The notes: generated by a model not told the origin, from the sequence alone. A stretch of DNA of 64,000 nucleotides from Candidatus Eiseniibacteriota bacterium (GCA_033853925.1 JAWOLC010000016.1:16670-80669), one strand, 5' to 3'; counted from the stretch's first letter, positions 27,466 through 42,341 are shown. Translations and numbers: made by a program.

Positions 27466-27848
27466 TACGGTGCACCTCCGCAGTCGCGCCCGGCAACTGG
27501 AACGCCATTCTTCCACCAATCCGGACCCAGGGGAACGGGATATTTCGCGCGCCGCGGGCCGTCCGGCGGCCGCCGGGGGAGCCGCGGCGGGGAGGCAACC
27601 CCTGTGTCCAGCCGCTCGGGAAGGGCGGACCCCCCTGGGCCCGAGGGGACTCGAGGGGCGAAGGGCGACCAGCCGGGTCCCCAGTGCAGGATGCACGGCC
27701 ACCCCGATCCCGCGCGGGGCGGGGGAGGGGAATCCGGCGGCGAAGGTTCCGTCGAGGACTGGCTCCTCCCTTGCGAAGTTGGAGTAGAATTGGCAGTGGA
27801 CCGATCGTGCTGCTCTGCCAACCCATCCCCTCCCTGGAGGCAACTCTC

Positions 27849-30539
27849 ATGTCCCCGATCCGCCCGGCGCCATCCTGCCCGGCGCGACGCGTGCTGCTCG
27901 TCGCGACCCTTGCCCTGCTCACGGCCCTTCCGGCCTGGGCTCAGGAGGGCGGGACCGGACCGGGGAGCGGCTTGAGCCCCGCCGAGCGCGAGACCCAGCG
28001 CCGCACCCTCAAGCAGCTCCAGCGGGATCTGCTCATGCAGGGCGCGCGTGGGCGCATGGCCGCCGCGCGGGCGCGGCAGCGCGAGCTGAGGAAGCACGGG
28101 GCCACGCGCGGGCAGGGCCTGCACGCGCGCAAGGCGGAGGTTTCGGACGAGGGCGGGAAGCCCCTGGACTTCGACCGGCGGGTGGTGATGGCCTCGGCCG
28201 AGAAGGCGGTGGTCGCGCCGACCAACGTGCGCGTCAACAACCCGACGGGCGACGCCAGCTCCGCGGGCCAGGCCGAGGAGAGCGTGGCCGCCCTGGGCAA
28301 CTACGTGCTCATCGCCTGGAACGACGGGCAGGGATTCACCTTCAATCCCTACCACGACCTCCAGACGGCCGGTTACTCGGTGGACGGCGGCGCGTCCTTC
28401 ACCCAGGTCACGATTCCGCACCCGTCCGCCTACCCGAACTGGTGGTGGTCGAGCGATCCGATCGTGACCGTGGACGAGAAGCGGGGCAAGTTCTACTACT
28501 GCGGCATGGGCCAGGACGTGCCCGGGCCGACCGCCCCCTCGGTCAGCGCCCTCGCGGTGGTGCCCGCCACCTTCTCGGGCTCCACCTTCACCTGGGGCAC
28601 GCCCTCCATCGTGGCCACCGTCCCCGCCGCGACGAGCTTCCTCGACAAGCCCTGGTGCGTCGCCGACTCCGTCACGGGGAACGTCTACGTCACGACCACC
28701 ACCTTCGACGCCTCGGACCACATCACCTTCTATCGCTCGACGAACCAGGCCGTCACCTGGTCGCCGGGCGTGCAGATCTCCTCGGTCGCGGAGAACGGCA
28801 CGGTCCAGGGGTCGCGCCCGGTCGTCGGCCCCGGGGGCGAGATCTACGTCGTGTGGTCGGCCATCGGCCCCTTCGACGCCGATTATCTGAATCTGCGCAA
28901 GGCGCCGAACCCCGGCTCCGGCTCGCCGTCCTGGGGCACGGAGGTCACGGTGGACAGCCTCTACGCGCAGTTCGGCACGGGCGCCCCCGGCTTCAACCGC
29001 GAGCGCGGCATCACCTTCCCCTCGATCGCCGTGGACCGCACCAAGGGCGCGAATCGCGGCCGCGTCTACGTCGCCTGGAACGAGACCTGGGACATCATCT
29101 CGGCCCCGGTGCCGCTCAACTCCGGCAAGGCCGAGGTCGAGCCGAACGGGGATCCCACCACCGCCACGCCCTTCACGCCGGGGCAGACCCTGCGCGGCTC
29201 CAGCTCCTCGACCTCGGACCTCGACTACTGGAGCTTCGCCTTGAGCGCCGGCCAGAGCATCATCGTCTGGGCGGACTCGCTGCCCCCCAGCGCCACCTAC
29301 ACCCTGCGCCTCTTCGCCCCCAGCCCCGACGCGGGGCAGCGCCTGTGCTACGGGGGCGACATCACCGCCGGGTCCAGCGTCACCCAGACCTATTACATGT
29401 TCACGGCCCCGGCCGCGGGGACCTATTACCTCCGGTACGCTCCCGTCTTCGGAAACTCGCCGATCGGCTCGTACCGGGTGAGGACCGCGTACGGCGGCGG
29501 ACCCGGCGGCTACCGGGCGCGCGACCAGCGCGACGCGTTCGTCAAGTACTCGGACAACGGCACGAGCTGGAACGGACCCCTTCGGCTGAACGACGACGGG
29601 ATCGGCTTCGACGACTTCCTGCCCGAGGTGATCGTTGGCGCGGACGGCTGCCCCTACGCCACCTGGTTCGACTTCCGCGACGACACCTACGGCTCGCGCG
29701 CGAACCAGTACGCCTCCCGTTCCCAGGATGGCGGCGCGACCTGGCAGGCGAACGCGCGCTTCACCAGCGCCACGAGCAACTTCACCACCTCGCTGAGCAA
29801 CATCGCGCCCAACCAGGGGGACTACAGCCACCTCTACGGCGACCCGCGCTACGTCCGGCCCACCTGGGCCGACGGTCGCGGGGCGAACGTGGACGTCTGG
29901 GCCACCGCCGTCGACACCTGGTTCGCCCTGGCGAGCTGCCCGCCCGCGCAGAGCGCGAACCCGAGGGACGTCCTCAACCTCACCTGGACGGTGAACAATC
30001 AGAACCCGCTCTTCCCGAGCGACTACGGCTACACGCTCACCAGCGCCCGCGCCTGGCCCCTGCCCCCGCCCGGAACGCTCCCGGGCGTGGCGGCCGCCGG
30101 CTCCGGCGACCTGAACCTCGCGGTGAGCGTGCCCGACTCCGTGGCCCTGGGCACGAACACTCTGACCTTGACGGTGACGAACGCCAGGGGCACGCGGGTC
30201 CAGCAGTGCGACGTGACGGTGAACCTGGTCACGACCCTGCTCGCGGTGGAGCCCACGGGGTACGGGCTCTCCTTCTCGCCCGCGCGTCCCAACCCGGCCT
30301 CGCGCGAGGCGCGCCTCGACTTCACCCTGCCGGGCCCGGGCCGGGTGCGCCTGGCGATCTTCGGGGTGCAGGGCGAGATCGTGCGCACGCTGGTGGACGG
30401 CGAGCGGCCGGCCGGCTCGAACAGCGTGGCCTGGGACGGACGCGACGACTCGGGCCGCGCCGTGGCGACCGGCGCCTACTTCGCCCGCCTCGAGGCCGCC
30501 GGCCGCACTCTCACCCGGCGCATCGTCTGGATGAGGTGA
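27849..30539 (+). CDS. Secreted BNR/sialidase-like beta-propeller with PPC-like insert and FlgD-like CTD (paralog of 14632..17319)
   Basis: Shared blocks GQAE, AWNDG, SDP.VTVD, DKPW, VQGSRP.VGP, APGFNR, ITFP.IAVD, RGRVYV.WNE, E.EPN, RD.RDAFV, LPEV, NQGDY, WADGR. CTD RPNP...FGVQGEIVR...WDGRD. Confidence 0.78.
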   Translation: MSPIRPAPSCPARRVLLVATLALLTALPAWAQEGGTGPGSGLSPAERETQRRTLKQLQRDLLMQGARGRMAAARARQRELRKHGATRGQGLHARKAEVSDEGGKPLDFDRRVVMASAEKAVVAPTNVRVNNPTGDASSAGQAEESVAALGNYVLIAWNDGQGFTFNPYHDLQTAGYSVDGGASFTQVTIPHPSAYPNWWWSSDPIVTVDEKRGKFYYCGMGQDVPGPTAPSVSALAVVPATFSGSTFTWGTPSIVATVPAATSFLDKPWCVADSVTGNVYVTTTTFDASDHITFYRSTNQAVTWSPGVQISSVAENGTVQGSRPVVGPGGEIYVVWSAIGPFDADYLNLRKAPNPGSGSPSWGTEVTVDSLYAQFGTGAPGFNRERGITFPSIAVDRTKGANRGRVYVAWNETWDIISAPVPLNSGKAEVEPNGDPTTATPFTPGQTLRGSSSSTSDLDYWSFALSAGQSIIVWADSLPPSATYTLRLFAPSPDAGQRLCYGGDITAGSSVTQTYYMFTAPAAGTYYLRYAPVFGNSPIGSYRVRTAYGGGPGGYRARDQRDAFVKYSDNGTSWNGPLRLNDDGIGFDDFLPEVIVGADGCPYATWFDFRDDTYGSRANQYASRSQDGGATWQANARFTSATSNFTTSLSNIAPNQGDYSHLYGDPRYVRPTWADGRGANVDVWATAVDTWFALASCPPAQSANPRDVLNLTWTVNNQNPLFPSDYGYTLTSARAWPLPPPGTLPGVAAAGSGDLNLAVSVPDSVALGTNTLTLTVTNARGTRVQQCDVTVNLVTTLLAVEPTGYGLSFSPARPNPASREARLDFTLPGPGRVRLAIFGVQGEIVRTLVDGERPAGSNSVAWDGRDDSGRAVATGAYFARLEAAGRTLTRRIVWMR

Positions 30540-30631: not shown

Positions 30632-32350
30632 TCAGAACCTCCAGCTCACCCGGCTGTAGAGCAGCGTGCTCGGCGTGATCCCGCCGTGGTCGCGCTCGAC
30701 CGAGAGGTCCAGGTAGGCACGGCGCACGAGGGTCAGGTCCAGGTTGCCGCTCTCCCAGAGGGTGCGATCCTGGACCCCGGCGAGGGGATCACGGGTCGTG
30801 CGCACGCCGCCCGCGAGCTCCAGGCGCGCGCCCGGCAGCGGGTCGAGACCGCCGCCGAAGCTCGCCAGCCCCGTCTCGATGCCGGCGCCGCTGGCGTGGC
30901 TCAGCCGGCCGCGCAGCGCCCCGTTCAGGGGCCCGAGCTGATGGACCTCGGCCGCGCCCGACCAGCCGTTCAGCCGGTCCCCGTTGGCGATGGCGCTCGT
31001 GCGCGCGTCCCCGCTCAGGCGCACGCGCGGGGCCAGCTCCAGCGAGAGCCCGCCCCAGGCGCCCTCGCGGTAGCGGTCGTCGAATTCCGTCTCCGGCGTG
31101 ACCCGGTCGCGGTAGAGCCGCACGTTGCGCCGGTTGTCGTAGCCGCCGTTCAGCCACAGCGAAGGCGTCAGCTTCAGGCTCGCGGTCATGAACGTGCTCG
31201 TGGCCGAGAGCGTGGGCTCCCCGAGCGCCCGCTTCCAGCCGCGGTTCAGGTCCAGCTCCTGCGCCCCGAATACGGAGAGACGCGGGTCGAGGTAGAAGAG
31301 CTGGGCGAAGGCGAAGTCGCGGTTGGTGGTGCCGGCCTGCACCGAGGACACCGCGCCGCCGGCCAGCGACCAGCGTCGCGCCGAGCCGGCCGGCTGGTGC
31401 CACTCCAGGTACCCGCCGCCCTCGACGATGCTGCTCGACAGCCCGAGGCGCAGCGGATCGGGCTGGGCGCCGCTGAAGAGCCCGGTGTTCCAGCGCGCCC
31501 CCCGGGACTCGACCAGGGCGCCGTCGAAGAGGCTGACGGGTGACAGCGAGGGTGAGCTCTGCCGGCCGACGGTGACCAGGTAGCGCCCCGACGGATCGTG
31601 CGCCGAGAGGCTGAAGCGGTAGACACGCGTGAGATCCTCGGTCACCGTTCCGCCCGCCGCCCGCTGGAAGCTCGTCCACCGCCCGCGCAGATCGAAGGAG
31701 ACCGTGAGCGGCGAGCCGGCCAGAGGCGATCCGTCCAGGGTCAGGTCCAGGGCGGGCTGGCTCAGACGTCCGCCGCCCTGCGTGTCGAGGCTGAGGAGTC
31801 CCACGCCCACGCGGCCGTGGAGGCGTCCGCTCGGCGAAGCTCGCCGCGGCGTGGCCGGGGCGATGGGGGGAGCGGGAGCGCCAGCCGTCCGCGAGGTGTC
31901 GGGGGCGGGCACGACGGCGGCCGCGGCAGGGACCGGCGCGACGGGGGGCGCCTCCCGAGCGCTGAAGCGAACCGTGTCACCCACCTGCACGGCCGCGAAG
32001 GTGCGCAGCGTGTCGCACGCCGCCCGATGCGAGGAGAGGAACGCCGCGCGGAGCCAGGCGATCGTCCGCCCCTCGCGCACCACCAGCAACGAATCGCCTT
32101 CGCCCAGGCCCTCGAGCCTGCCGGCCTCCACGTAGACCGAGCCGCCGGCGAGGTAGCTGACGCGGGTCGTGGCCGCGCCCGCTCGGGCAGTGAGCGCCAG
32201 CGCCCCCGCGAGCGCCACCGCGACCCCGAGGCCCGACGCCGACGCGCGCCACCTGCCCGTGCCGCCTGCGCGCGCGGCGGCGCCTCCGCCGGCCCTGCGC
32301 CCTCGGGCCTCCCACGCGCTTCCCGCGGGGGCCGTCGCAGTCCTGATCAT
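30632..32350 (-). CDS. Outer-membrane beta-barrel (putative porin of a porin-cytochrome complex) with N-terminal soluble domain
   Basis: Signal peptide; N-terminal VSYLAGGSVYVEAG...GDSL domain; Pro-rich linker; alternating beta-strand pattern; C-terminal SRVSWRF. GGAGG RBS. Confidence 0.75.
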   Translation of the reverse strand: MIRTATAPAGSAWEARGRRAGGGAAARAGGTGRWRASASGLGVAVALAGALALTARAGAATTRVSYLAGGSVYVEAGRLEGLGEGDSLLVVREGRTIAWLRAAFLSSHRAACDTLRTFAAVQVGDTVRFSAREAPPVAPVPAAAAVVPAPDTSRTAGAPAPPIAPATPRRASPSGRLHGRVGVGLLSLDTQGGGRLSQPALDLTLDGSPLAGSPLTVSFDLRGRWTSFQRAAGGTVTEDLTRVYRFSLSAHDPSGRYLVTVGRQSSPSLSPVSLFDGALVESRGARWNTGLFSGAQPDPLRLGLSSSIVEGGGYLEWHQPAGSARRWSLAGGAVSSVQAGTTNRDFAFAQLFYLDPRLSVFGAQELDLNRGWKRALGEPTLSATSTFMTASLKLTPSLWLNGGYDNRRNVRLYRDRVTPETEFDDRYREGAWGGLSLELAPRVRLSGDARTSAIANGDRLNGWSGAAEVHQLGPLNGALRGRLSHASGAGIETGLASFGGGLDPLPGARLELAGGVRTTRDPLAGVQDRTLWESGNLDLTLVRRAYLDLSVERDHGGITPSTLLYSRVSWRF

Positions 32351-32387
32351 GGCTCCTCCCGGAGAGGCCTTCCCGCCCACATCGTGA

Positions 32388-33749
32388 TCATCCCCCGACC
32401 GAGCCGGTCGGATGGCACCGGTAGCAGGCGTTGCTGTCGTAGGTGTAGCCCGCGACGCTGCTGTGGTTCTGATCCGTCGTGGCCTGGGGGTGGCAGCCTC
32501 CGGGCAGGCAGCTGAACGCCGCGAAGTTGGTCGAGACCGTGTGACAGGTCGAGCAGGTGAGGCCTGAATGCGCCCCCGAGGTGATGGGGAACCAGGTGTG
32601 GTCGAAGGTGGCTCCGGCCCAGCTCGTGGTGTTGTGGCAGGTGGCGCAGGTCGTGGGGAAGCCGGCGGCGGCGTGGTTGGGATCGGCGGTCGCGTTGTAC
32701 TGGGCCTGGTGGCACGAGTAGCAGTCGGTGGCGAGCGTCATCTGCCACGGCGTGCCGTGGCACGTCACGCAGGCCACCGAGAGGTGCGCCCCCGTGAGGG
32801 GGAAGGGCGTCGTCGAGTGATCGAAGCTGCCGCTGCCCCAGGTGCCGGTCGAGTGGCAGGTGGCGCACGTCGTCGGGATCCCCGCGGCCGCGTGCGGGGG
32901 GCTCGTCGTGGCGTTGTACTGCGCCAGGTGGCAGGAGTAGCAGTCGCTGGCCGGCCTCGTCTGCCAGGGCGTTCCATGGCAGGACGAGCAGGCGACCGAG
33001 AGGTGGGCTCCGGTGAGCGGGAAGCCGGTGGCCGAGTGGTCGAAGCGGGCCGGCCCCCAGGCGATGGCGTTGTGGCACTGCGTGCAGTCCGTGGAGATGC
33101 CGGCCGCCGCATGGGCCGGAGTCGTCGTCGCGGCGAAGTCGGCGCGGTGACAGCCGTAGCAGTCGGCGATCGTGGCCACGAACTGCATGTGCCCCTGCGC
33201 CGCCGGCTGGTGGCAGGCTTCGCAGTCGAGCCCCGCGTGCGCCCCCGCGAGCGGGAAGCGCGTGGTCTGGTGCAGGCGCACCATCATGTCCCGGTCCAGG
33301 AACGAGCGGGCCGTGTGGCAGCGCCCGCAATCCGCGCCGAACTCGCCGCGGTGCGGGTCCTCGTGGCACGAGCTGCACATCGGCTTCTGCAGGGTGAAGT
33401 CGAGCGTCGCGTGACAGGCCGTGCAGGGCACCGAGGCGTGCGCCCCGGTCAAGGCGAAGCGGGACCTCGTCGCCTTGGCGTGGTCGAAGCGCGGGCCGAT
33501 CTGCGCCGGCTTCCAGCCCTGATCGCCATGGCACATGGAGCAGTCGCCCTGGTAGTTCCCGTGCGGGTAGGGCGGCTCCTCGGCAGCGACCGCCACGAGG
33601 GCCAGCGTCACGGGCAGGAGCGCCGCGAGCAGAACGGCCGGAAACGCGCTTCCCGGCTCGCCCTGCGGGCCGACGCCACGCGGGAGCCCCGGCAGCCACG
33701 GCGGGGACGCTCCGAGCTTCGGGGTCGGATGGAATGCGGATCGCTTCAT
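32388..33749 (-). CDS. Periplasmic multiheme c-type cytochrome (15 CxxCH + 1 CX4CH)
   Basis: Motifs counted by eye in the C-terminal 453 aa of ORF 32388..35717. Hydrophobic leader. Repeating FDH...FPLTGAH unit. Confidence 0.9.
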   Translation of the reverse strand: MKRSAFHPTPKLGASPPWLPGLPRGVGPQGEPGSAFPAVLLAALLPVTLALVAVAAEEPPYPHGNYQGDCSMCHGDQGWKPAQIGPRFDHAKATRSRFALTGAHASVPCTACHATLDFTLQKPMCSSCHEDPHRGEFGADCGRCHTARSFLDRDMMVRLHQTTRFPLAGAHAGLDCEACHQPAAQGHMQFVATIADCYGCHRADFAATTTPAHAAAGISTDCTQCHNAIAWGPARFDHSATGFPLTGAHLSVACSSCHGTPWQTRPASDCYSCHLAQYNATTSPPHAAAGIPTTCATCHSTGTWGSGSFDHSTTPFPLTGAHLSVACVTCHGTPWQMTLATDCYSCHQAQYNATADPNHAAAGFPTTCATCHNTTSWAGATFDHTWFPITSGAHSGLTCSTCHTVSTNFAAFSCLPGGCHPQATTDQNHSSVAGYTYDSNACYRCHPTGSVGG

Positions 33750-33766: not shown

Positions 33767-36004
33767 TCAGGAGCTCTTGGGGCTCGGGCGAGTGGTGACG
33801 GCCGGACCCTTGGGCGTCTGCCGCACCGCGTGGCAGTCCTCGCAGCGCTCCGGGGTCGGCCGGTAGAGGGCGTAAGCGCGCCCCGCGGCGTCGCGGGCGG
33901 TCGGATGGCAGGCGCCACAGGCCACGCGGGCGTGGGCGCCGCGCAGGTGGAAGGCGGCGTCCCGCTCGTGATCGAAGCGGCCCGCGGGGGCGAACGCCTG
34001 CAGGTCGTGGCAAGCCTCGCAGGCGTCGCCGGGCAGGCCGGCACGCGTGGCCGGGCGACCCGCGAACTGCGCGCCGTGGGGGCTCGCGTGGCAGTCGGCG
34101 CAGCCGGTCGGCAGCGCGGTCACGAACAGGGCGGGCACGGCGGCGTCCCTGAGGCTCGAGGCGGCCCGCGGCGCGGCGAGGTCCTTGTGGCAGGCCAGGC
34201 AGGGCACGGCGCGGTGGGCGCCCTCGAGCGCGAAGCCGTAACCCGAGTGGTCGCTCACCCCGATCGTGGCCGGCGAGAAGGCGGCCAGCGAGTGGCAGGC
34301 GCGGCAGCCTTCGGCCTGCGGCCGCGCGCCGCCGGGGGAGTAGCGGCCCCGATGCGGGTCCGCGTGGCAGTCCGTGCAGCCCGCCGGCGTCTCGGCCACG
34401 AACAGGGCGGGCTCCGCCGCGCCCTTGAGGCTCGAGGCGGGGCGGGGCGAGTCCAGGTCGGAGTGACAGGAGCGGCAGGCGGCGGCGAGGTGCGCGCCCT
34501 CCAGGGCGAAGCCGAGCCGGGCGTGGCTGGCGGCGGTGACGGTGGAGGGCACGAACCGGTCCAGCGTGTGGCAGGCGCGGCACCCTCCGGCCTGCGCCCG
34601 GGCGCCGCCCGCCGCGTACCGGCCCCGATGCGGATCGGCGTGGCAGTCGGCACACTGCGCGTGCGGCGGCCGCAGCAGGACGCGCGAGGTCCCGAGCCCG
34701 GCCTCGGCGCTCCGGAGGTGGCAGCTCGCGCAGGCCGCGCTCGCGTGCCGGCCTTCGAGCGGGTAGGCAGTCGTCTGGTGCGCGGCGGCCGTGAAGGTCG
34801 AGGGCGTCCAGCCGCGCTCGTCGTGGCAGGCGGCGCAGTCGGCGGCTCGCCCGGCCAGCGTGGCTTGCCCGGCGTGCGCGTCGGGATGGCAGGCCGCGCA
34901 GCGCTCGAAGGGCGGCTTCTCGCCCCAGGCGGTCTTGGGGTCGTGGCAGCGGGCGCACGCCAGGGTGGCGTGCTTGCCGCGCAGGGCGAAGCGCGTGCGG
35001 TCGTGGTCGAAGTCGCGCTGGTTCACGTCGTGGAAGCCGGTCGTGACGTGGCAGCGGGCGCACGCCCCGGTGAACCGACCGGCGTGCGGGTCGCGATGGC
35101 AGGAGGCGCAGTCGGCGTGGGCCACGGGGGCGAAGCGCAACGAGCCGTACGCGGCGACGGACGCGGCGCCCCGGCCCACCGCGGCGGCGAGCTTCGCGGC
35201 CGGATGGCACGCCGAGCAGGCCAGAGAGACGTGCTTGCCCGTGAGCGGGTAGCGGGTCCTGGCGTGATCGAACCCCGGCGCGGGCTTCCACTTCTCCTGG
35301 TCGTGGCAGCGCCGGCAGTCGGCGCCTTCCTCGCCCCCATGCGGATCCTCGTGGCACGAGCCGCAGGGGGTCTCCAGGCCGAGCCACGAGCGCGCGTGAT
35401 CTTCCTGCCGGATGAGAGGAGCGGCGCCCGACTTCTGGAAGCGCGGCGCATGGCACTGCCGGCAGGCGAGGGAGGCATGCCGGCCCTCGAGCGAGAAGCC
35501 CGCCCGCCGGTGGTCGAAGCGCTGGGGGGAGCCTTCGTCCCAGCGCACGAGCTGGAAGCCGCGCCCGGCGTGCTCGGGGTGGCACTTCGCGCAGGCGGTG
35601 GTCCCGACGCGCGCGTGGAGGCCGCGCCCGCGCACGCGCAGCCAGCCGATCTCGGTGTGACAGGCGAGACACTTGGCGTCCACCACTCCGGCCCCACTGG
35701 CGTGGCACTGGAAGCACTGCGTGGCCCCGTCGAGGGCGCGATGCGCCTCGGCCAACGGCCCCGGCGAGAGCTGGGCGCGCGCCGGCGCGGCGGCGAGGAC
35801 GGCCGTGAGCGACAGGACCGCGAGCGCGGCGCTGCCGCGGGGGCCGATGGCCAGAGGGCGATGCCTGCGCAGCGGCGGAGCCAGGGATGGTGGAGCCGTG
35901 CTGGCGCAGCCCGAGCGAGACGTGCGGCAGGGACTGCCGCAGTCGAGCGTGCGCCCGGAGGCCATCGGCTCCGCGGTCCCGCGCTCGCGGCCCGGGATCG
36001 TCAT
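33767..36004 (-). CDS. Large periplasmic multiheme c-type cytochrome (23 CxxCH)
   Basis: 23 CxxCH counted by eye. Leader ending ARA-QLSPGPL. ATG 36004 overlaps the upstream TGA (alternative start 35965). Confidence 0.92.
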   Translation of the reverse strand: MTIPGRERGTAEPMASGRTLDCGSPCRTSRSGCASTAPPSLAPPLRRHRPLAIGPRGSAALAVLSLTAVLAAAPARAQLSPGPLAEAHRALDGATQCFQCHASGAGVVDAKCLACHTEIGWLRVRGRGLHARVGTTACAKCHPEHAGRGFQLVRWDEGSPQRFDHRRAGFSLEGRHASLACRQCHAPRFQKSGAAPLIRQEDHARSWLGLETPCGSCHEDPHGGEEGADCRRCHDQEKWKPAPGFDHARTRYPLTGKHVSLACSACHPAAKLAAAVGRGAASVAAYGSLRFAPVAHADCASCHRDPHAGRFTGACARCHVTTGFHDVNQRDFDHDRTRFALRGKHATLACARCHDPKTAWGEKPPFERCAACHPDAHAGQATLAGRAADCAACHDERGWTPSTFTAAAHQTTAYPLEGRHASAACASCHLRSAEAGLGTSRVLLRPPHAQCADCHADPHRGRYAAGGARAQAGGCRACHTLDRFVPSTVTAASHARLGFALEGAHLAAACRSCHSDLDSPRPASSLKGAAEPALFVAETPAGCTDCHADPHRGRYSPGGARPQAEGCRACHSLAAFSPATIGVSDHSGYGFALEGAHRAVPCLACHKDLAAPRAASSLRDAAVPALFVTALPTGCADCHASPHGAQFAGRPATRAGLPGDACEACHDLQAFAPAGRFDHERDAAFHLRGAHARVACGACHPTARDAAGRAYALYRPTPERCEDCHAVRQTPKGPAVTTRPSPKSS

Positions 36005-37470
36005 CCGGCGCTCCGCTGGGCGCCCGTCTCGATGGCGATCTCCTTGGTCACCATGCGCACGCCGCAGCGCTCGAGGAAGGGGTAGGGCGGCTCGCCGCCG
36101 ATGCGGATCACCACGTAGTCGTTGGGCAGGAGCCGCGGCTCGCCGGCGCAGTCCAGGGCCACGACCCCCGGCCGGATCTCGAGCACCCGGCTCTCCAGCA
36201 GCACTTCCACGCGCCCCGCCGCCCGCGCCGCCTCCAGCTTCTCGCGGTTGCGCTCCTTGACCCGCCCGAATTCCTGCCCGCGGTAGGACAGGACCACCGT
36301 CGTGTCGGGCTGGCTCGCCAGTCCCACCGCCGACTCGATCGCGCTGTCGCCCCCGCCTACGACCAGCATGCGGCAGCCCACGAAGGCCTCCATCTCGACG
36401 ATGTCGTAGAGGGCCTTCTCCAGCTCCTCGCCCGGCACCCCCAGCCGGCGCGGCGTGCCCCGACGCCCCATCGCCAGCACCACCTTGCGCGCCTGGTACT
36501 CGGTCCCGGGCGTGCGCAGGCGGAAGAGCACTCCGTCACGCGCCAGCGCCTCGACGCGCTCGCCGGTGTGCACGTTCAGCTGGGCCCGCGCAATCACCGC
36601 CTCCCACACCCGCAGCAGCTCCTCCTTCGAGGCGTCCGCGACCCAGAGGTTGCCGTAGAGCTGCACCCGCGTCGGTTCCGCGAGGAGGAGCTTGCGGCGC
36701 GGGTACTTGCGGATCGTGTCGGAGATCGAGCCCTGCTCGAGCACCACGCAGCGCAGGCCGAGCCGTCTCGCCTCCAGCGCCGCCGACAGCCCGGCGGGCC
36801 CCGAGCCCACCACGACCAGCTCGTAGGGGCCGGGCTCTTCCCGCTCGAGGGACGGAGGGAGCGGCGGGCCCGGCGGTCGCCCGCGCTCGGCGGCGAGGGT
36901 CTGCGCCACGTGCTCGACGGCGATCCGGCCCTCGTTGATCGCGTTCTTGATGAGCCCTCGCCCGCCCAGCTCGCCGACGATGTAGAGCCCGGGCACGTTC
37001 GTCTGGAAGTTGGCGTCCACCTCGGGCACCTCGAGGCGCTGGACCGCGGCGCCCGTGGCCATCACGATCGCCCCGACGGGGCAGGCGGGTGCGCACAGCC
37101 CGTGGCGCTGGCAGACGTCCAGGTTCACGAGCGCCCGATGGTCCACGAGGCGGAGCGCGCCGGGCTCGGGGCAGGCCGCGACGCAGGTGCCGCAGCCCAC
37201 GCACACGTCCGCCCGCACGATGGGGTGGGGCCTCGCTCCCGAATCCGGGACCGCCGTCGGGTCCACGACCGGCGCGGTGACCAGCTCGAAGGCCTGGAGG
37301 GGAACGCCGCAGGCCGGGCAGAATTCCGCGCCCGCCGCGATCGCGGCCGAGCAGCGCGGACAGGTCCGCGCCACGGGCGGGTCCTGACCCGAGCGCGAGC
37401 GGCGCACGTGCCACCAGGCCAGGAGCACGGTGAGGGCCAGGAAGGCCAGGGTCGTGACGAGCATGCCCAT
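36001..37470 (-). CDS. Membrane-anchored Zn-ribbon + 2x[4Fe-4S] + FAD/NAD(P)H-binding thioredoxin-reductase-like oxidoreductase
   Basis: N-terminal TM; CPRC/CPAC; CVGCGTCVAACP and CQRHGLCAPACP; VVGSGPAGL; VVGGGDSA followed by SYRG. No catalytic CxxC in the reductase domain. Confidence 0.88.
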   Translation of the reverse strand: MGMLVTTLAFLALTVLLAWWHVRRSRSGQDPPVARTCPRCSAAIAAGAEFCPACGVPLQAFELVTAPVVDPTAVPDSGARPHPIVRADVCVGCGTCVAACPEPGALRLVDHRALVNLDVCQRHGLCAPACPVGAIVMATGAAVQRLEVPEVDANFQTNVPGLYIVGELGGRGLIKNAINEGRIAVEHVAQTLAAERGRPPGPPLPPSLEREEPGPYELVVVGSGPAGLSAALEARRLGLRCVVLEQGSISDTIRKYPRRKLLLAEPTRVQLYGNLWVADASKEELLRVWEAVIARAQLNVHTGERVEALARDGVLFRLRTPGTEYQARKVVLAMGRRGTPRRLGVPGEELEKALYDIVEMEAFVGCRMLVVGGGDSAIESAVGLASQPDTTVVLSYRGQEFGRVKERNREKLEAARAAGRVEVLLESRVLEIRPGVVALDCAGEPRLLPNDYVVIRIGGEPPYPFLERCGVRMVTKEIAIETGAQRSAG

Positions 37471-37473
37471 GGC

Positions 37474-38502
37474 TCAACGCACCAGCACGCCGCCGACCAG
37501 GACCGCGATCGTGACGTGGACGAGGATGGCGAGGAGCGCGGTGATGGCCACGGGCAGGTGGGCCACGTGCCACCAGCCGAACACGCGGTGCGTGGCGTCC
37601 AGCATGCGCACCTGCTGGTCCAGCGCGAGCTGCCGGCGGGCGAGCGCGAGAGCCGCGGCCACCGCCCGGCGATCCGGCGCCGGCTCTCCGGGCCGCGGGC
37701 GCGACCAGCGCTTCTGCAGGGCGCGCAGCGCCCGGCGCCGCGCCAGGTCGTCGGCCACGAGGTGCGCGAAGGTGCCCAGGAGGCCGTGCCCCGCCCCGCG
37801 GGCGGGGCCCAGGGTCAGGGACTGCTCGACCTCGCCGGGGTCGAGCCCGGTCTCGGCCGCGATGCGCGTGAGCAGCGCCCGGCGCTCGTTGACCACCTCG
37901 TCGCGCGAGAGCTCGAGGCCGTTCCGCCGGCGGGGGATGTGCGCGTAGAGGTAGCGGCCCACGATCCCGCTCAGGATGACCAGCATCATGGCCGCGTAGC
38001 CCAGGCCGATGAGGCCCGTGAAGCGCCAGCCCGCGTGGACGGCCACGACGAAGGGCAGCGTCAGCCCCGCCAGGATGTGGACGCGAAGCCAGACGCCCAG
38101 GTTCCCGCGGCGGCGCAATGCGCCCAGGTGCTTCCGCAGGGGATAGAGCCACATGAAGAGGAAGAGGGACAGACCCGCGATGCCGAACCCGAGCCCGAGC
38201 GCGCCGGCGGGATCGAGCAGAGGCCGGAGCGGATCGCGGGCGCGGCCGGCCGGGCCGAGCAGATAGAAGGGCAGGTAACGGAGCGTGACGCCCAGCGGAA
38301 TCGCCAGCAGGCAGGCGATGGCCACGCGATCCACGACGATCGCCGGACTCTTCTCCCCTTGCCGCGCACGCTCGGGGCTCTCAGGGCGCAAGGCGAGGCT
38401 CTCCGCGTCAGGGACTCTGGTGCTGCGAGGCTCGGAACCCGGAGCGGCGCGCGGCGTCGATTCCGCCTGCCGCCGGGTCACGAGGGCGCTCAGCGAGTTC
38501 AC
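37474..38502 (-). CDS. Ferric-reductase-like di-heme b membrane protein
   Basis: Two His-x13-His pairs in TM helices (HILAGLTLPFVVAVH; HLPVAITALLAILVH). GGAAGG RBS before GTG 38502 (start uncertain). Confidence 0.75.
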   Translation of the reverse strand: MNSLSALVTRRQAESTPRAAPGSEPRSTRVPDAESLALRPESPERARQGEKSPAIVVDRVAIACLLAIPLGVTLRYLPFYLLGPAGRARDPLRPLLDPAGALGLGFGIAGLSLFLFMWLYPLRKHLGALRRRGNLGVWLRVHILAGLTLPFVVAVHAGWRFTGLIGLGYAAMMLVILSGIVGRYLYAHIPRRRNGLELSRDEVVNERRALLTRIAAETGLDPGEVEQSLTLGPARGAGHGLLGTFAHLVADDLARRRALRALQKRWSRPRPGEPAPDRRAVAAALALARRQLALDQQVRMLDATHRVFGWWHVAHLPVAITALLAILVHVTIAVLVGGVLVR

Positions 38503-39110: not shown

Positions 39111-39719
39111 GGTGCACCTCCGATGGCTCGGACTCCGGTCTTGTTCGCCCCGCACGGGCCAGGTCCGGGCCCGGCCTCGCCTTCTGTCTGCGGCCCGCGC
39201 AGGTGCTGAATCGGCGAACGAACACGGCCTCGAATGCCGCGAGGGTGAGGATCGAGACGGCCGGCGACCTCCTCTCCATTTCGCGCAGGCTCGGGCGGGG
39301 GCGGCCGGCACGGCCTCTGACTGCTCGTCGTCCTCGCGGCGGCGCAGGGGGCGCGCCGCGCTTCGGTGCCGTCCAGGCACCTCGCTCTTCATGCTGAGCC
39401 CTCGGGCCTTTCCCGTGTCCCGTGCCTGTGGGGAGCGAGCAAGGAGTGCGCAAAATCGCCGCGATCAGGGCGGCCCGCCCACCATCCCTGCGCGCGGGCT
39501 CGCCCCGCGCTGGCCCGCCCGCCTGCCTCGCTCGTCCGCTTCTGCTCCCCGTGAGGCCCCGCCGGCGGGCGGCCGGTGATAGCCTCCCCGCCCGCGGAGC
39601 CATTCTCCCTCGAGTTCCCTGACGAGTCCTGGCCCCGCGGCAGTCCCGCGCAGGGCGGGGCGCGCAAGTCCAGCCGCCCCGGCCCGGTGCCCACTCACCC
39701 TCGAGGAGGAACCTCCGGC

Positions 39720-41684
39720 ATGTACCGACCGCACCGCTGGTCTCGAATCGCCGCTCCACTCCTGCTCGCGACTCTGGCCCTCGGTCCGCTCGCCGGCGCC
39801 GCCCGCGCCGCGCTGCCGCCGCTCGCCCCGCGCGACGTGTTCTTCGGCAATCCGGTCAAGGCGAACCCGCAGCTCTCGCCCGACGGCAAGCTGCTCGGCT
39901 ACCTCGCGCCCTCCGACAAGGGCGTGCTGAACGTCTGGGTCAAGACCATCGGCCAGAACGACGACCGCATGGTCACCCGCGACGAGAAGCGCGGCATCCG
40001 GCAGTACTACTTCGCCGAGGACGGCAAGACCCTGCTCTACCTGCAGGACGTGGCGGGGAACGAGAACTTCCATCTCTACGCCGTGCCCCTGGCGGGGGGC
40101 GAGACCCGCGACCTCACGCCGCACGAGGGCGCGCGCGCCATCGGCGTGGACATGGACAAGAACCACCCCGACGAGCTAGTCGTGGGCCTGAACCTGCGCG
40201 ACAAGCGGCTCTTCGACAGCTATCGCGTCGTCATCAGCACCGGCGAGGAGAAGCTGGAGGCGGAGAACCCCGGCGACGTGCAGGGCTGGGGCACGGACGC
40301 CGCCTTCGTGGTGCGCGCGGCCTTGGCCATGGACCCCAAGGACGGCAGCCAGATCCTGCGCGTCCGCGACGACGCCGCGGCGCCCTGGCGGGATCTGCTC
40401 GTGCTCCCGCCCGAGGAGAACGGCTCGTTCCTGGGCTTCACCGCCGACGGCAAGGCGGCCTACGTCACCACCTCGGTCGGCTCCGACGTCACCCGCCTGG
40501 TGAAGGTCGACCTGGCCACGGGCAAGGAGCTGGAGAGCCTGGCCGTGGATCCGCGCTGCGACGTGGGCGGGGTGCTGATCCACCCGGACACCCGCATCGT
40601 CCAGGCCGTGGGCTTCGACTACCTGCGCAACGAGTGGAAGGTGCTGGATCCGGCGATCGCCGCGGACTTCGCCGCGCTGCGCAAGCTGAATCCCGGCGAC
40701 TTCGCCGTCACCAGCCGGGACCGCGCCGACCAGCAGTGGGTCGTGGCCTACACGAACAGCGACAGCCAGGTGAAGTGGTACCTGTACGACCGCAAGACGA
40801 AGAAGGCCGCGTTCCTCTTCGGCAACCAGCCGGCGCTCGAGCAGGTGAAGCTGGCCAAGATGGAGGGCGTGGTCATCAAGGCCCGCGACGGGCTGGACAT
40901 TCCCTGCTACCTGACGCTGCCCGTGGGCGTGCCGGCCAAGAACCTGCCCACGGTCCTCTACATTCACGGCGGCCCCTGGGCCCGCGACTCCTGGGGCTAC
41001 AGCCCGACCGACCAGTGGCTGGCCAATCGCGGCTACGCGGTCGTCAACGTGAACTACCGCGCCTCGACCGGCTTCGGCAAGAAGTTCCTGCACGCCGGCG
41101 ACCTGCAGTGGGGCGCCAAGATGCAGGACGACCTGACCGACGCCGCGAAGTGGGCGATCGCCAAGGGCTACGCCGATCCCAAGCGGGTGGCCATCATGGG
41201 CGGCTCGTACGGCGGCTACGCCACCCTGGCGGGCCTCACCTTCACGCCCGACCTCTACGCGTGCGGCGTGGACATCGTCGGGCCGTCGAACCTCAAGACC
41301 CTGCTGGAGTCGGTGCCGCCCTACTGGGCGACCATGCGCAAGCTCTGGGACCTGCGCATGGGCCCCGTGGACCGGGACTCGGTCTTCAATCAGCGCGTCT
41401 CGCCGCTCTTCCACGTGGACGCGATCAAGGTGCCGCTCATGATCGGCCAGGGCCAGAACGACCCCCGGGTGAACGTGCGCGAGTCCGACCAGATCGTGGC
41501 CGCCATGCGCGCGAAGAACCTGCCGGTCGAGTACGTGGTCTACACGGACGAGGGGCACGGGTTCGCGCGACCGCAGAATCGGCTCGATTTCTACGGGCGC
41601 GCCGAGAACTTCCTGGCCAAGCACCTGGGCGGACGCGCCGAGCCCTTCTCGGAGGTGACGGGCAGCTCGGCCGTGGTGAAGTAG
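39720..41684 (+). CDS. Secreted S9 family serine peptidase (dipeptidyl aminopeptidase/acylaminoacyl peptidase-like)
   Basis: Signal peptide, IHGGPW, GGSYGG (Ser), NDPRV (Asp), DEGHG (His). Confidence 0.93.
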   Translation: MYRPHRWSRIAAPLLLATLALGPLAGAARAALPPLAPRDVFFGNPVKANPQLSPDGKLLGYLAPSDKGVLNVWVKTIGQNDDRMVTRDEKRGIRQYYFAEDGKTLLYLQDVAGNENFHLYAVPLAGGETRDLTPHEGARAIGVDMDKNHPDELVVGLNLRDKRLFDSYRVVISTGEEKLEAENPGDVQGWGTDAAFVVRAALAMDPKDGSQILRVRDDAAAPWRDLLVLPPEENGSFLGFTADGKAAYVTTSVGSDVTRLVKVDLATGKELESLAVDPRCDVGGVLIHPDTRIVQAVGFDYLRNEWKVLDPAIAADFAALRKLNPGDFAVTSRDRADQQWVVAYTNSDSQVKWYLYDRKTKKAAFLFGNQPALEQVKLAKMEGVVIKARDGLDIPCYLTLPVGVPAKNLPTVLYIHGGPWARDSWGYSPTDQWLANRGYAVVNVNYRASTGFGKKFLHAGDLQWGAKMQDDLTDAAKWAIAKGYADPKRVAIMGGSYGGYATLAGLTFTPDLYACGVDIVGPSNLKTLLESVPPYWATMRKLWDLRMGPVDRDSVFNQRVSPLFHVDAIKVPLMIGQGQNDPRVNVRESDQIVAAMRAKNLPVEYVVYTDEGHGFARPQNRLDFYGRAENFLAKHLGGRAEPFSEVTGSSAVVK

Positions 41685-41870: not shown

Positions 41871-42341
41871 ATGCAGCGCTCGCGCCGTCTCGCCGTCCTG
41901 GCCCACCTGCTCGCCGATCGTCGCTTCACGAGCCAGCAGGCGCTGGTCAAGGCCCTGGCCCACTCGGGGGTGGAGGCCACCCAGGCCACGCTTTCCCGCG
42001 ACCTGCGCAGCCTGGGCGTGCTGAAGCGCCCCGGGGCGCAGGGACGCATGGTCTACGAGCTGCCGGGCCCGGAGAGCGAGACCCTGGACCGCCAGCGGCA
42101 ATCGCTCGACCTCAAGGTCTTCGTGAACGAGGTCCGCGTCGCCCAGAACCTGGCCCTGGTCCGCACGCCGCCCGGCCACGCCAACGCCGTGGCCCGGGCC
42201 ATCGACCTGGAGCGGTTCGCGGGCGTCGTGGGCTCCGTGGCCGGCGACGACACCGTGCTGGTCGTGACCGAGGACGCCTCCGCCGCGCGACGATTCAAGC
42301 GCCTGCTCGATTCGCTCCACGGCTCCGGTACCCGGCAGTGA
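41871..42341 (+). CDS. argR: Arginine repressor
   Basis: SQQALV, TQATLSRDL, GSVAGDDT. Confidence 0.96.
   Translation: MQRSRRLAVLAHLLADRRFTSQQALVKALAHSGVEATQATLSRDLRSLGVLKRPGAQGRMVYELPGPESETLDRQRQSLDLKVFVNEVRVAQNLALVRTPPGHANAVARAIDLERFAGVVGSVAGDDTVLVVTEDASAARRFKRLLDSLHGSGTRQ

What the first reader, a model, noticed from the sequence alone, without database searches (positions are those of the whole stretch)
36001..37470. TrxR-like flavoprotein lacking the redox CxxC, fused to a TM anchor, Zn ribbon and ferredoxin with a His-substituted cluster
Seen: domain order TM - CPRC/CPAC - CxxCxxCxxxCP - CxxHxxCxxxCP - FAD (GSGPAG) - NADP-type (GGGDSA...YRG). The reductase part has no dithiol pair. Inference: electrons leave FAD through Fe-S clusters rather than a disulfide, so the protein may act like the dehydrogenase half of a split NOX/ferric reductase. 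The Cys-to-His change could give a 3Fe-4S or His-ligated cluster.
Basis: partly seen in the sequence, partly recalled or inferred. Interest (0 to 1): 0.55.

Follow-up and report, generated by a model that had tools for sequence, protein, structure and literature searches.

The report
Iron-sulfur flavoprotein feeding a cytochrome wire
This gene encodes a membrane-anchored NAD(P)H-type iron-sulfur flavoprotein with a rearranged thioredoxin-reductase fold. It is always encoded beside the two-haem membrane protein of a "PCC3" multihaem cytochrome conduit, so that untested electron wire is probably connected to cytoplasmic NAD(P)H, not only to quinones.

Summary
No Cys is conserved after residue 130. 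The His in CxxHxxCxxxCP is kept in 114 of 117 homologues.

The FAD "GD" element, C-terminal in YpdA and thioredoxin reductase, lies before the GxGxxG motif.

The gene is the second of five tightly spaced genes:
- a five-helix membrane protein (IMP) with two WxxxHx13H motifs
- this flavoprotein
- a 23-haem cytochrome
- a 15-haem cytochrome
- a barrel-like outer-membrane protein

In 80 species the IMP lies directly upstream (80/80) and the cytochrome directly downstream (78/78). The IMP matches the published signature of the "PCC3/PCC4" inner-membrane protein. The papers I read describe PCC3 as four genes, with no flavoprotein. Natural single-chain fusions exist: flavoprotein-IMP, flavoprotein-cytochrome and flavoprotein-IMP-cytochrome.

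Most likely it oxidises NAD(P)H and passes electrons through FAD and two Fe-S clusters to the IMP haems and outwards, like a split NOX. None of this has been tested biochemically. Earlier reports of this scan reached the same reading on other genomes.

The parts
37474..38502 (-). Inner-membrane protein (IMP), 342 aa. It has five predicted TM helices, WxxxHx13H on TM3 (H142, H156) and on TM5 (H315, H329), and SGxxG on TM4. It is the putative dihaem b partner.
   Evidence: There is no Pfam or NCBIfam hit. The four His are invariant in 89 diverged representatives. The signature equals that of the PCC3/PCC4 IMP in PMC5566968. The best fold matches are dihaem helical bundles, but at Z values that are not decisive: CybB 5oc0 Z 10.1 and SpNOX Z 9.1.
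36001..37470 (-). The finding: a membrane-anchored Zn-ribbon / 2x Fe-S ferredoxin / permuted YpdA-like FAD-NAD(P)H flavoprotein, 489 aa.
   Evidence: The start codon lies 3 nt after the IMP stop. The stop overlaps the ATG of the next gene (ATGA), as read from the coordinates.
37405..37470 (-). N-terminal TM anchor (residues 1-22), followed by RRSRS. The predicted topology is N-out with the body in the cytoplasm.
   Evidence: Sequence; hydropathy; helix 2-27 in the model. The topology is inferred from the positive-inside rule.
37297..37368 (-). Four-Cys zinc ribbon (C37, C40, C51, C54).
   Evidence: Pfam DZR, Zn_Ribbon_1. The Cys are invariant in the close family. The ribbon is absent from the distant clade of the family.
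37060..37224 (-). Two-cluster ferredoxin domain: CxxCxxCxxxCP plus CxxHxxCxxxCP.
   Evidence: Fer4_10, Fer4_7 and Fer4_21. His is present in 114/117 homologues and is also kept in most distant members.
36883..37044 (-). Permuted FAD-binding GD-motif element (TNVPGLYIVGELGGRG plus the following helix). It lies ahead of the GxGxxG motif.
   Evidence: The 61-aa segment alone matches the C-terminal end of TrxR 7jyp (298-340 of 343, E 9e-5), of dihydrolipoamide dehydrogenases (E 3.5e-4), and Pfam Pyr_redox_2 positions 254-291 of 291. An order-swap HMM test was run against canonical paralogues of the same genome.
36826..36882 (-). Pro-rich linker of variable length that joins the old C- and N-termini (residues 197-215).
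   Evidence: Gapped and variable in the alignment. Mean pLDDT is 53 for residues 201-210.
36025..36825 (-). FAD Rossmann (GSGPAG), the YpdA-type YPR.K..LAEP region, and the NAD(P)H domain (GGGDSA, YRG).
   Evidence: Pyr_redox_3 E 2.8e-39. YpdA/Bdr 7a76 and 7a7b, E about 1e-28. Foldseek top hits are YpdA/Bdr, then TrxR and TrxR-like FNR.
33767..36004 (-). Multihaem cytochrome c with 23 CxxCH motifs. It resembles the periplasmic cytochrome of PCC3.
   Evidence: It lies directly downstream of the flavoprotein in 78/78 loci.
32388..33749 (-). Multihaem cytochrome c with 15 CxxCH motifs plus one CxxxxCH. It resembles the extracellular cytochrome of PCC3.
   Evidence: Present in 48/49 loci with 9 kb of downstream sequence.
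30632..32380 (-). Putative outer-membrane barrel (582 aa) with a signal-like N-terminus; it ends in ...SWRF.
   Evidence: Sequence; no Pfam hit. Present in 48/49 loci with 9 kb of downstream sequence. The barrel fold itself was not tested.

Best explanation
The protein is the cytoplasmic electron-input subunit of a PCC3-type trans-envelope cytochrome conduit.

An N-terminal helix holds it at the inner face of the cytoplasmic membrane. NAD(P)H reduces FAD in a YpdA-like but cysteine-free and circularly permuted two-Rossmann body; the motifs suggest NADPH. Electrons then leave one at a time through two Fe-S clusters of the fused ferredoxin domain. One of those clusters has His in place of the second Cys.

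From there the electrons would pass to the cytoplasmic-side haem b of the adjacent five-helix IMP, cross the membrane to its outer haem b, and enter the 23-haem and 15-haem c-type cytochromes and the outer-membrane barrel. The system would thus work like a split NADPH oxidase or ferric reductase, extended across two membranes.

Shown here: the domain and motif content, the permutation, the conserved synteny, and the natural fusions.

Inferred: cofactor occupancy, NADPH preference, direct docking to the IMP, and the outward direction of electron flow. The outward direction is favoured because both the redox span and the membrane potential drive electrons out.
For: Architecture and conservation.

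Closest solved relatives are YpdA/Bdr, then the CxxC-less TrxR-like ferredoxin-NADP reductases (2zbw E 5.5e-17, 3ab1 E 2.7e-15). These exchange electrons between NADPH and Fe-S ferredoxins.

Permutation.

Synteny in 80 species of Eisenbacteria, Gemmatimonadota, Krumholzibacteriota and Latescibacteria:
- IMP directly upstream in 80/80
- cytochrome directly downstream in 78/78
- second cytochrome in 48/49 and barrel in 48/49

A distant IMP clade (about 30% identity) still has a flavoprotein homologue in the cluster in 29 of 39 loci of at least 6 kb. That homologue keeps the anchor, CxxHxxC, the permutation, GPAG and YR.

Natural fusions:
- flavoprotein-IMP: P0484, hhalign 99.7%; 12 proteins of 876-984 aa carry two WxxxHx13H motifs
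- flavoprotein-TM-cytochrome: P0423 and others, with a hydrophobic helix at the junction
- flavoprotein-IMP-cytochrome: P0425, hhalign 99.2%

IMP as a dihaem protein: four invariant His, and weak hits to DUF4405, Ferric_reduct and Ni_hydr_CYTB in 43, 25 and 22 of 89 relatives.

Published PCC3 clusters were down-regulated in Fe(II)-grown Sideroxydans ES-1 (PMC8788666). That fits a role other than Fe(II) oxidation.
Against: There are no biochemical data for any member.

The published model takes the IMP to be quinone-active (PMC5566968), and nothing here excludes a quinone site.

The window's own IMP has no Pfam hit, and its fold matches (Z 8-10) are in the range that helical bundles reach by chance.

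I could not read the model's coordinates, so no FAD-to-cluster or cluster-to-haem distances are known.

Ten of 39 distant loci show no flavoprotein within the sequence held. Most of those contigs end inside the cytochrome genes.

The cluster is accessory: it was found in 53 of 151 genomes sampled from the phylum.

Outward flow consumes membrane potential, so its physiological benefit is unclear.
Confidence: 0.6

Rival explanations
1. The complex is the same but works in reverse. Electrons taken up from outside, for example from Fe(II) or a cathode, would travel inwards and the flavoprotein would reduce NAD(P)+.
For: PCC3 was first proposed as an electron-uptake and Fe(II)-oxidation system in iron oxidisers (PMC5566968). 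TrxR-like FNRs are reversible enzymes (established knowledge).
Against: Fe(II) donors lie several hundred mV above NAD(P)+/NAD(P)H. Inward electron movement is also opposed by an inside-negative membrane potential, and no energy-coupling component is visible in the five genes (inference). PCC3 genes were down-regulated on Fe(II) in ES-1. The hosts here are Eisenbacteria and Gemmatimonadota lineages, not known iron oxidisers.
Confidence: 0.1
2. The flavoprotein is a membrane-bound NAD(P)H:quinone reductase, functionally like NDH-2. The IMP would be a quinol oxidase, so the two communicate only through the quinone pool.
For: The published model takes the IMP to be quinone-active. The flavoprotein is membrane-anchored and belongs to the same two-Rossmann flavoprotein superfamily as NDH-2.
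Against: A two-cluster ferredoxin domain is not needed for quinone reduction by a flavoprotein. Strict adjacency (80/80) and repeated covalent fusion to the IMP and to the cytochrome argue for direct electron hand-over. No quinone-site motif was identified, though none was specifically searched for.
Confidence: 0.15
3. It is a low-molecular-weight thiol-disulfide reductase of the YpdA/Bdr or thioredoxin-reductase kind, as the automatic annotations say.
For: YpdA is the best family and the best solved-structure match. Source annotations read 'thioredoxin reductase' or 'putative YpdA family...'.
Against: The TIGR04018 score is 161.7 against a cut-off of 339.9, and the TrxR score is 67 against 343. 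The YpdA Cys is Ala in 116/117 homologues. There is no CxxC and no conserved Cys in the body.
Confidence: 0.02
4. It is an accessory or maturation factor. For example, it might supply reductant for haem or iron handling while the 38 c-haems and the b-haems are assembled, without being part of the working electron path.
For: Conserved co-location is equally expected for an assembly factor.
Against: Fusions place it in the same polypeptide as the IMP and the cytochrome at 1:1 stoichiometry, which is unusual for an assembly factor. No cytochrome-maturation domains are present.
Confidence: 0.08

Closest known systems
YpdA/Bdr bacillithiol-disulfide reductase (NCBIfam TIGR04018; PDB 7A76, 7A7B, 7APR)
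   Same: It is the closest sequence and fold relative of the flavoprotein body (E about 1e-28; Foldseek top hits). The two share the FAD GxGxxG, the YP...-type region after it, and the GGxxSA / YRG NADPH-type motifs.
   Different: The score is far below the family cut-off. The conserved Cys is Ala. The C-terminal GD element has moved to the front (circular permutation). The protein also carries a fused TM anchor, Zn ribbon and two-cluster ferredoxin.
TrxR-like ferredoxin-NADP+ oxidoreductases (B. subtilis YumC 3LZW, Chlorobaculum 3AB1, Thermus 2ZBW)
   Same: They have the same fold family, lack the CxxC, and link NADPH/FAD to Fe-S ferredoxins (hits at E 5.5e-17 to 5e-7). This is the best functional analogue for the first electron-transfer steps.
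   Different: Those enzymes are soluble, collinear and use a separate ferredoxin. Here the ferredoxin is fused and has a His-substituted motif, the fold is permuted, and the protein is tethered to the membrane.
PCC3 and PCC4 porin-cytochrome c gene clusters and their 'conserved inner membrane protein' (He et al. 2017, PMC5566968; Hoover et al. 2023, PMC9900912)
   Same: The same gene set is present: a barrel, a cytochrome of about 21-27 haems, a second large cytochrome, and an IMP of about 300 aa. The IMP has five TM helices, WxxxHx13H on TM3 and TM5, and SGxxG on TM4.
   Different: The published clusters are described as four genes, with the IMP assumed to talk to quinones. No flavoprotein is mentioned in the papers read. 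Here a flavoprotein gene sits between the IMP and the cytochrome. Direct sequence comparison with the Sideroxydans genes was not possible.
NADPH oxidase / ferric reductase (NOX, FRE, SpNOX 8QQ7) and MsrQ with the flavin reductase Fre
   Same: The logic is the same: a cytoplasmic NAD(P)H flavoenzyme feeds two stacked b haems, held by two Hx13H-type His pairs, which carry electrons across the membrane.
   Different: The dehydrogenase part of NOX is of the FNR type and fused to the membrane domain. Here it is a TrxR/YpdA-type body with two Fe-S clusters on a separate chain. The acceptor is a multihaem cytochrome chain, not O2 or Fe(III) at the membrane surface. Homology of the IMP to Pfam Ferric_reduct is only weakly indicated.

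Membership tests
YpdA/Bdr (TIGR04018) | Whole-protein score at or above the curated cut-off | tested here: not met
   161.7 bits against a cut-off of 339.9.
YpdA/Bdr (TIGR04018) | Conserved Cys in the GGGPCG FAD motif (Cys14 of Bdr) | tested here: not met
   The motif here is GSGPAG. The position is Ala in 116 of 117 homologues (alignment; count).
YpdA/Bdr (TIGR04018) | Collinear order with the GD FAD motif at the C-terminus | tested here: not met
   The GD element lies at residues 143-196, before the GxGxxG at 222. Canonical paralogues match a native-order HMM in swapped order and a de-permuted HMM collinearly.
Low-Mr thioredoxin reductase (TIGR01292) | Redox-active CxxC in the NADPH domain | tested here: not met
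   There is no CxxC and no conserved Cys after residue 130. The score is 67.4 against a cut-off of 343.
TrxR-like ferredoxin-NADP+ reductase | TrxR fold without CxxC, with FAD and NADPH motifs | tested here: met
   PDB hits 2zbw, 3ab1, 3lzw and 5ygq. The motifs GSGPAG, GGGDSA and YRG are conserved.
TrxR-like ferredoxin-NADP+ reductase | C-terminal extension stacking on the flavin, and the homodimer | not testable with these tools
   The model coordinates could not be read. Because of the permutation, the chain ends about 10 residues after the position that aligns to YpdA residue 270.
2x[4Fe-4S] bacterial-type ferredoxin domain (Pfam Fer4_10 / Fer4_7) | Pfam gathering score | tested here: met
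   Fer4_10 scores 33.9 against 25.5; Fer4_7 scores 30.4 against 27.
2x[4Fe-4S] bacterial-type ferredoxin domain (Pfam Fer4_10 / Fer4_7) | Two complete CxxCxxCxxxCP motifs (eight Cys) | tested here: not met
   The second motif is CxxHxxCxxxCP, with His in 114/117 homologues. The cluster type is undetermined.
PCC3 porin-cytochrome cluster (He et al. 2017) | The gene set: barrel, two large multihaem cytochromes, and an IMP with five TM helices, two WxxxHx13H motifs and SGxxG | tested here: met
   set against the description read.
PCC3 porin-cytochrome cluster (He et al. 2017) | Sequence homology to the reference genes (Slit_0867-0870) | not tested
NOX / ferric reductase | Ferric_reduct (PF01794) transmembrane domain in the partner | tested here: inconclusive
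   The window's IMP gives no Pfam hit. Of 89 relatives, 25 give sub-threshold PF01794 hits. SpNOX gives Z 9.1 and STEAP1 Z 7.6, within the noise for helical bundles.
NOX / ferric reductase | FNR-type FAD/NAD dehydrogenase domain (PF08022/PF08030) | tested here: not met
   The dehydrogenase here is Pyr_redox_3, of the YpdA type.

The most novel reading that the evidence does not exclude
PCC3-type conduits are not quinone-linked. They are complete NAD(P)H:extracellular-acceptor oxidoreductases, in effect a two-membrane-spanning bacterial NOX. A circularly permuted, His-cluster ferredoxin-flavoprotein injects cytoplasmic electrons directly into a dihaem membrane protein and about 40 c-haems, bypassing the respiratory chain. 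This would give a new, widespread route for redox balancing, for reducing Fe/Mn or humic substances, or for making extracellular reactive oxygen species.
Probability: 0.45. Interest if true: 0.8.

Novelty: new variant of a known kind. Interest (0 to 1): 0.62.

Why it matters
PCC3 clusters are widespread and are used as marker genes for iron cycling. Their function is untested, and their link to metabolism has only been guessed (quinones).

A constant NAD(P)H-type Fe-S flavoprotein partner, sometimes fused, gives a concrete and testable entry point. It suggests that electrons flow outwards from the cytoplasmic pyridine-nucleotide pool. That would change how these genes are read in metagenomes: as an electron sink or reductase, not an iron oxidase.

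The protein is also a clean natural case of circular permutation in the thioredoxin-reductase fold. It carries a near-invariant His in a ferredoxin cluster motif, and both features are of interest to enzymologists.

Tried and rejected
Gene context was obtained from the search for related loci instead.

2. P0272, P0253 and P0264 at first looked like IMP-flavoprotein fusions. For P0272, BLAST showed two good blocks separated by unalignable stretches, with TM5 missing. It is therefore a frameshift or gene-call artefact and was not used as evidence. P0253 and P0264 were not examined and were not used.

3. Foldseek of the IMP model against PDB gave nothing below E 0.6. VIA-align put dihaem bundles on top, but at Z values that are not decisive.

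4. The ESM Atlas returned only unnamed 'hypothetical protein' clusters for the IMP. The listing of cluster members gave no organism names for distant IMPs.

5. hhalign of the IMP profile against P0423 found no IMP domain. That protein is a flavoprotein-cytochrome fusion only.

6. Literature searches for this flavoprotein together with multihaem clusters, or for PCC3 in Gemmatimonadota, found no description. This covers open-access text only.

7. The structure model's coordinates are not readable in the script box. No cofactor distances and no structural proof of the permutation could be computed; the permutation rests on sequence and HMM evidence.

8. Whether proteobacterial reference PCC3 clusters (Sideroxydans) have the flavoprotein could not be checked here.


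Full report
**What is there**

The window has about 73% G+C. The ORF 36001-37470 on the minus strand has the codon-position G+C pattern of a real gene, with GC3 of 0.95. It translates to 489 residues.

Pfam confirms a zinc ribbon (37-58), a two-cluster ferredoxin domain (83-137) and a Pyr_redox_3 flavoprotein body (219-474, E 2.8e-39). The best NCBIfam model is YpdA/Bdr, but at 161.7 bits against a cut-off of 339.9. Thioredoxin reductase scores 67 against 343. The protein is therefore related to these families and belongs to neither.

**Conservation**

The protein search returned full-length relatives of 58-81% identity. Their only names are 'thioredoxin reductase', 'putative YpdA family...' or 'NAD(P)-binding domain-containing protein'.

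In a 28-sequence alignment:
- the four Zn-ribbon Cys, the seven ferredoxin Cys, GxGPAG, GGGD and the YRG Arg are invariant;
- H123 is at least 90% conserved;
- no Cys after position 130 is conserved.

Over 117 full-length homologues, the second-motif residue is His in 114, Ala in 2 and Gln in 1. The position of the YpdA Cys is Ala in 116. A thiol-disulfide mechanism is therefore excluded by the sequence.

In the PDB search, residues 218-479 align to YpdA residues 5-270, while residues 154-195 align to YpdA residues 279-324.

The 61-residue segment 140-200 was then searched alone. It hits the extreme C-terminus of a thioredoxin reductase (7jyp, 298-340 of 343, E 9e-5), the GD motif of dihydrolipoamide dehydrogenases (E 3.5e-4), and Pfam Pyr_redox_2 positions 254-291 of 291.

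As a direct test, I built two HMMs from the family alignment, one in native order and one with the two blocks swapped. I searched both against all ORFs of the window's own genome.
- Several canonical flavoproteins of that genome (the ORFs on C78, C60, C142 and C17) match the native-order model in reversed block order.
- The two that passed the threshold with the swapped model (C78, C60) match it collinearly.
- The target and one paralogue (contig C44) behave the opposite way.

The old termini are joined by a Pro-rich linker of variable length (197-215) with low model confidence. The AlphaFold model (pLDDT 77) finds YpdA/Bdr, TrxR and TrxR-like FNR as its best folds.

**Gene context**

On the same strand, five genes lie in a row:
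- a 342-aa membrane protein (IMP, 37474-38502), whose stop is 3 nt before the flavoprotein start;
- the flavoprotein;
- a 23-haem cytochrome, whose ATG overlaps the flavoprotein stop;
- a cytochrome with 15 CxxCH motifs plus one CxxxxCH;
- a 582-aa protein that ends in ...SWRF.

In 80 species-representative genomes (Eisenbacteria, Gemmatimonadota, Krumholzibacteriota, Latescibacteria and some unclassified MAGs) the order is the same:
- the IMP lies directly upstream in 80/80;
- the first cytochrome lies directly downstream in 78/78 loci that have any downstream sequence;
- the second cytochrome and the barrel are each present in 48/49 loci with 9 kb of downstream sequence.

Within the window's phylum the gene is accessory: 53 of 151 sampled genomes have it.

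**The partner membrane protein**

The IMP has no Pfam or NCBIfam hit. Its family is large: 3133 clusters at 50% identity in the representative search.

Across 89 representatives, down to 20-30% identity, the invariant residues include exactly four His (H142, H156, H315, H329). They form two WxxxHx13H motifs on TM3 and TM5. The Gly of an SGxxG motif on TM4 is also invariant.

Of these 89 relatives, 43, 25 and 22 give sub-threshold hits to DUF4405, Ferric_reduct and prokaryotic cytochrome b561 respectively. Structure search puts dihaem helical bundles on top (CybB Z 10.1, a designed two-haem bundle Z 10.1, SpNOX Z 9.1). Such Z values are not decisive for helical proteins, and Foldseek found nothing.

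This signature is, word for word, that of the 'conserved inner membrane protein' of the PCC3 and PCC4 porin-cytochrome clusters of He et al. 2017 (PMC5566968). The papers I read describe PCC3 as four genes: porin, a periplasmic cytochrome of 21-27 haems, an extracellular cytochrome of 10-35 haems, and the IMP. They assume the IMP is quinone-active and mention no flavoprotein.

**Is the flavoprotein a real partner?**

Two further lines say yes.

First, a distant IMP clade (about 30% identity) was fetched from metagenomes. It has a homologue of the flavoprotein (36-46% identity) in the cluster in 29 of 39 loci of at least 6 kb. It is usually next to the IMP, and sometimes after the cytochromes. 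Most of the ten loci without one end inside the cytochrome genes. These distant flavoproteins lack the Zn ribbon. They keep the TM anchor, the CxxHxxC motif (mostly), the permuted GD element, GPAG and the Y-R NADPH-type motif.

Second, natural fusions exist.
- P0484 (958 aa, on a 130-kb contig, from three sources) has the flavoprotein followed by an IMP domain (hhalign 99.7%).
- Twelve proteins of 876-984 aa combine the flavoprotein with two WxxxHx13H motifs.
- P0423 and many others fuse the flavoprotein, through one hydrophobic helix, to 20-34 c-haems.
- P0425 has flavoprotein, IMP (hhalign 99.2%) and 20 haems in one chain.

The fusion order (flavoprotein C-terminus to IMP N-terminus) fits the predicted topology, in which both ends are cytoplasmic. 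One apparent fusion, P0272, is a frameshift artefact and was discarded.

**Mechanism**

The most economical reading is this path: NAD(P)H to FAD, then the two Fe-S clusters, then the inner haem b, the outer haem b, the 23-haem cytochrome, and finally the 15-haem cytochrome and barrel.

The nearest functional analogues of the first steps are the CxxC-less TrxR-like ferredoxin-NADP reductases. The analogue of the whole is NOX/FRE, or MsrQ with Fre.

The direction is inferred. Outward flow is downhill in redox terms and is helped by an inside-negative membrane potential. Inward flow to NAD(P)+ would be uphill on both counts, and no coupling device is visible. In Sideroxydans ES-1, PCC3 genes are down-regulated on Fe(II) (PMC8788666).

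The His-bearing motif is the one whose central Cys is missing in 3Fe ferredoxins, and His-ligated 4Fe clusters are known at the exit points of some hydrogenases (my own knowledge). Which type applies here needs EPR.

**Novelty and standing**

I found no paper that describes this flavoprotein or its permutation (open-access text only).

Earlier reports of this scan, on other genomes, reached the same PCC3-plus-flavoprotein reading and also noted the permutation. I reached the PCC3 link through the literature and saw the permutation before reading those notes. I took from them only the lead to look for true fusions, which I then tested.

It is best classed as a new variant of known kinds: a TrxR-like FNR-ferredoxin module, and a PCC3 conduit. 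It has a clear and testable consequence for how PCC3 systems are wired.

Noticed in passing
L002 (own genome, contig C44, about 1400-2526 of the locus): A second permuted YpdA-like flavoprotein lies in the same genome, with TNVPGLYLAGSL ahead of VIVGAGAAG. It has no ferredoxin domain and sits just after an ORF whose sequence looks like a multi-pass membrane transporter (my reading; no domain search was run). The permuted fold is therefore not confined to the cytochrome-linked family.
   Followed up: partly
window 27684-30539 (+): A 951-aa secreted-looking protein with a PPC domain and a C-terminal FlgD-Ig-like (T9SS-type) sorting domain. It converges on the barrel gene of the conduit.
   Followed up: no
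window 46908-48968 (+): An argininosuccinate lyase fused to a C-terminal GNAT acetyltransferase domain. An ArgR repressor lies at 41871-42341 and an S9 prolyl oligopeptidase at 39576-41684.
   Followed up: no
P0423, P0431, P0456, P0459 (proteins of other genomes; two of them named Thermoanaerobaculia and Acidobacteria by their source): Single polypeptides of 1079-1313 aa join the anchored Fe-S flavoprotein, through one hydrophobic helix, to 25-34 c-type haem motifs. A cytoplasmic flavoenzyme and a periplasmic haem wire would then sit in one chain.
   Followed up: partly
L086, L106, L112, L127 and others (metagenome loci): In a distant clade of the flavoprotein, the first ferredoxin motif also loses its central Cys (C-x2-[S/I/A/T]-x2-C-x3-CP in several members, for example L106, L112, L127, L135). 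Some of these proteins may therefore carry two non-standard clusters.
   Followed up: partly
P0465, P0467, P0469, P0473, P0483 (proteins of other genomes): Flavoprotein fusions of about 890-985 aa carry an extra Fer4_11 (PF13247) domain; four of the five also carry two WxxxHx13H motifs (not detected in P0465). PF13247 is the Fe-S family that He et al. report in a gene upstream of the IMP in PCC4 subgroup II.
   Followed up: no
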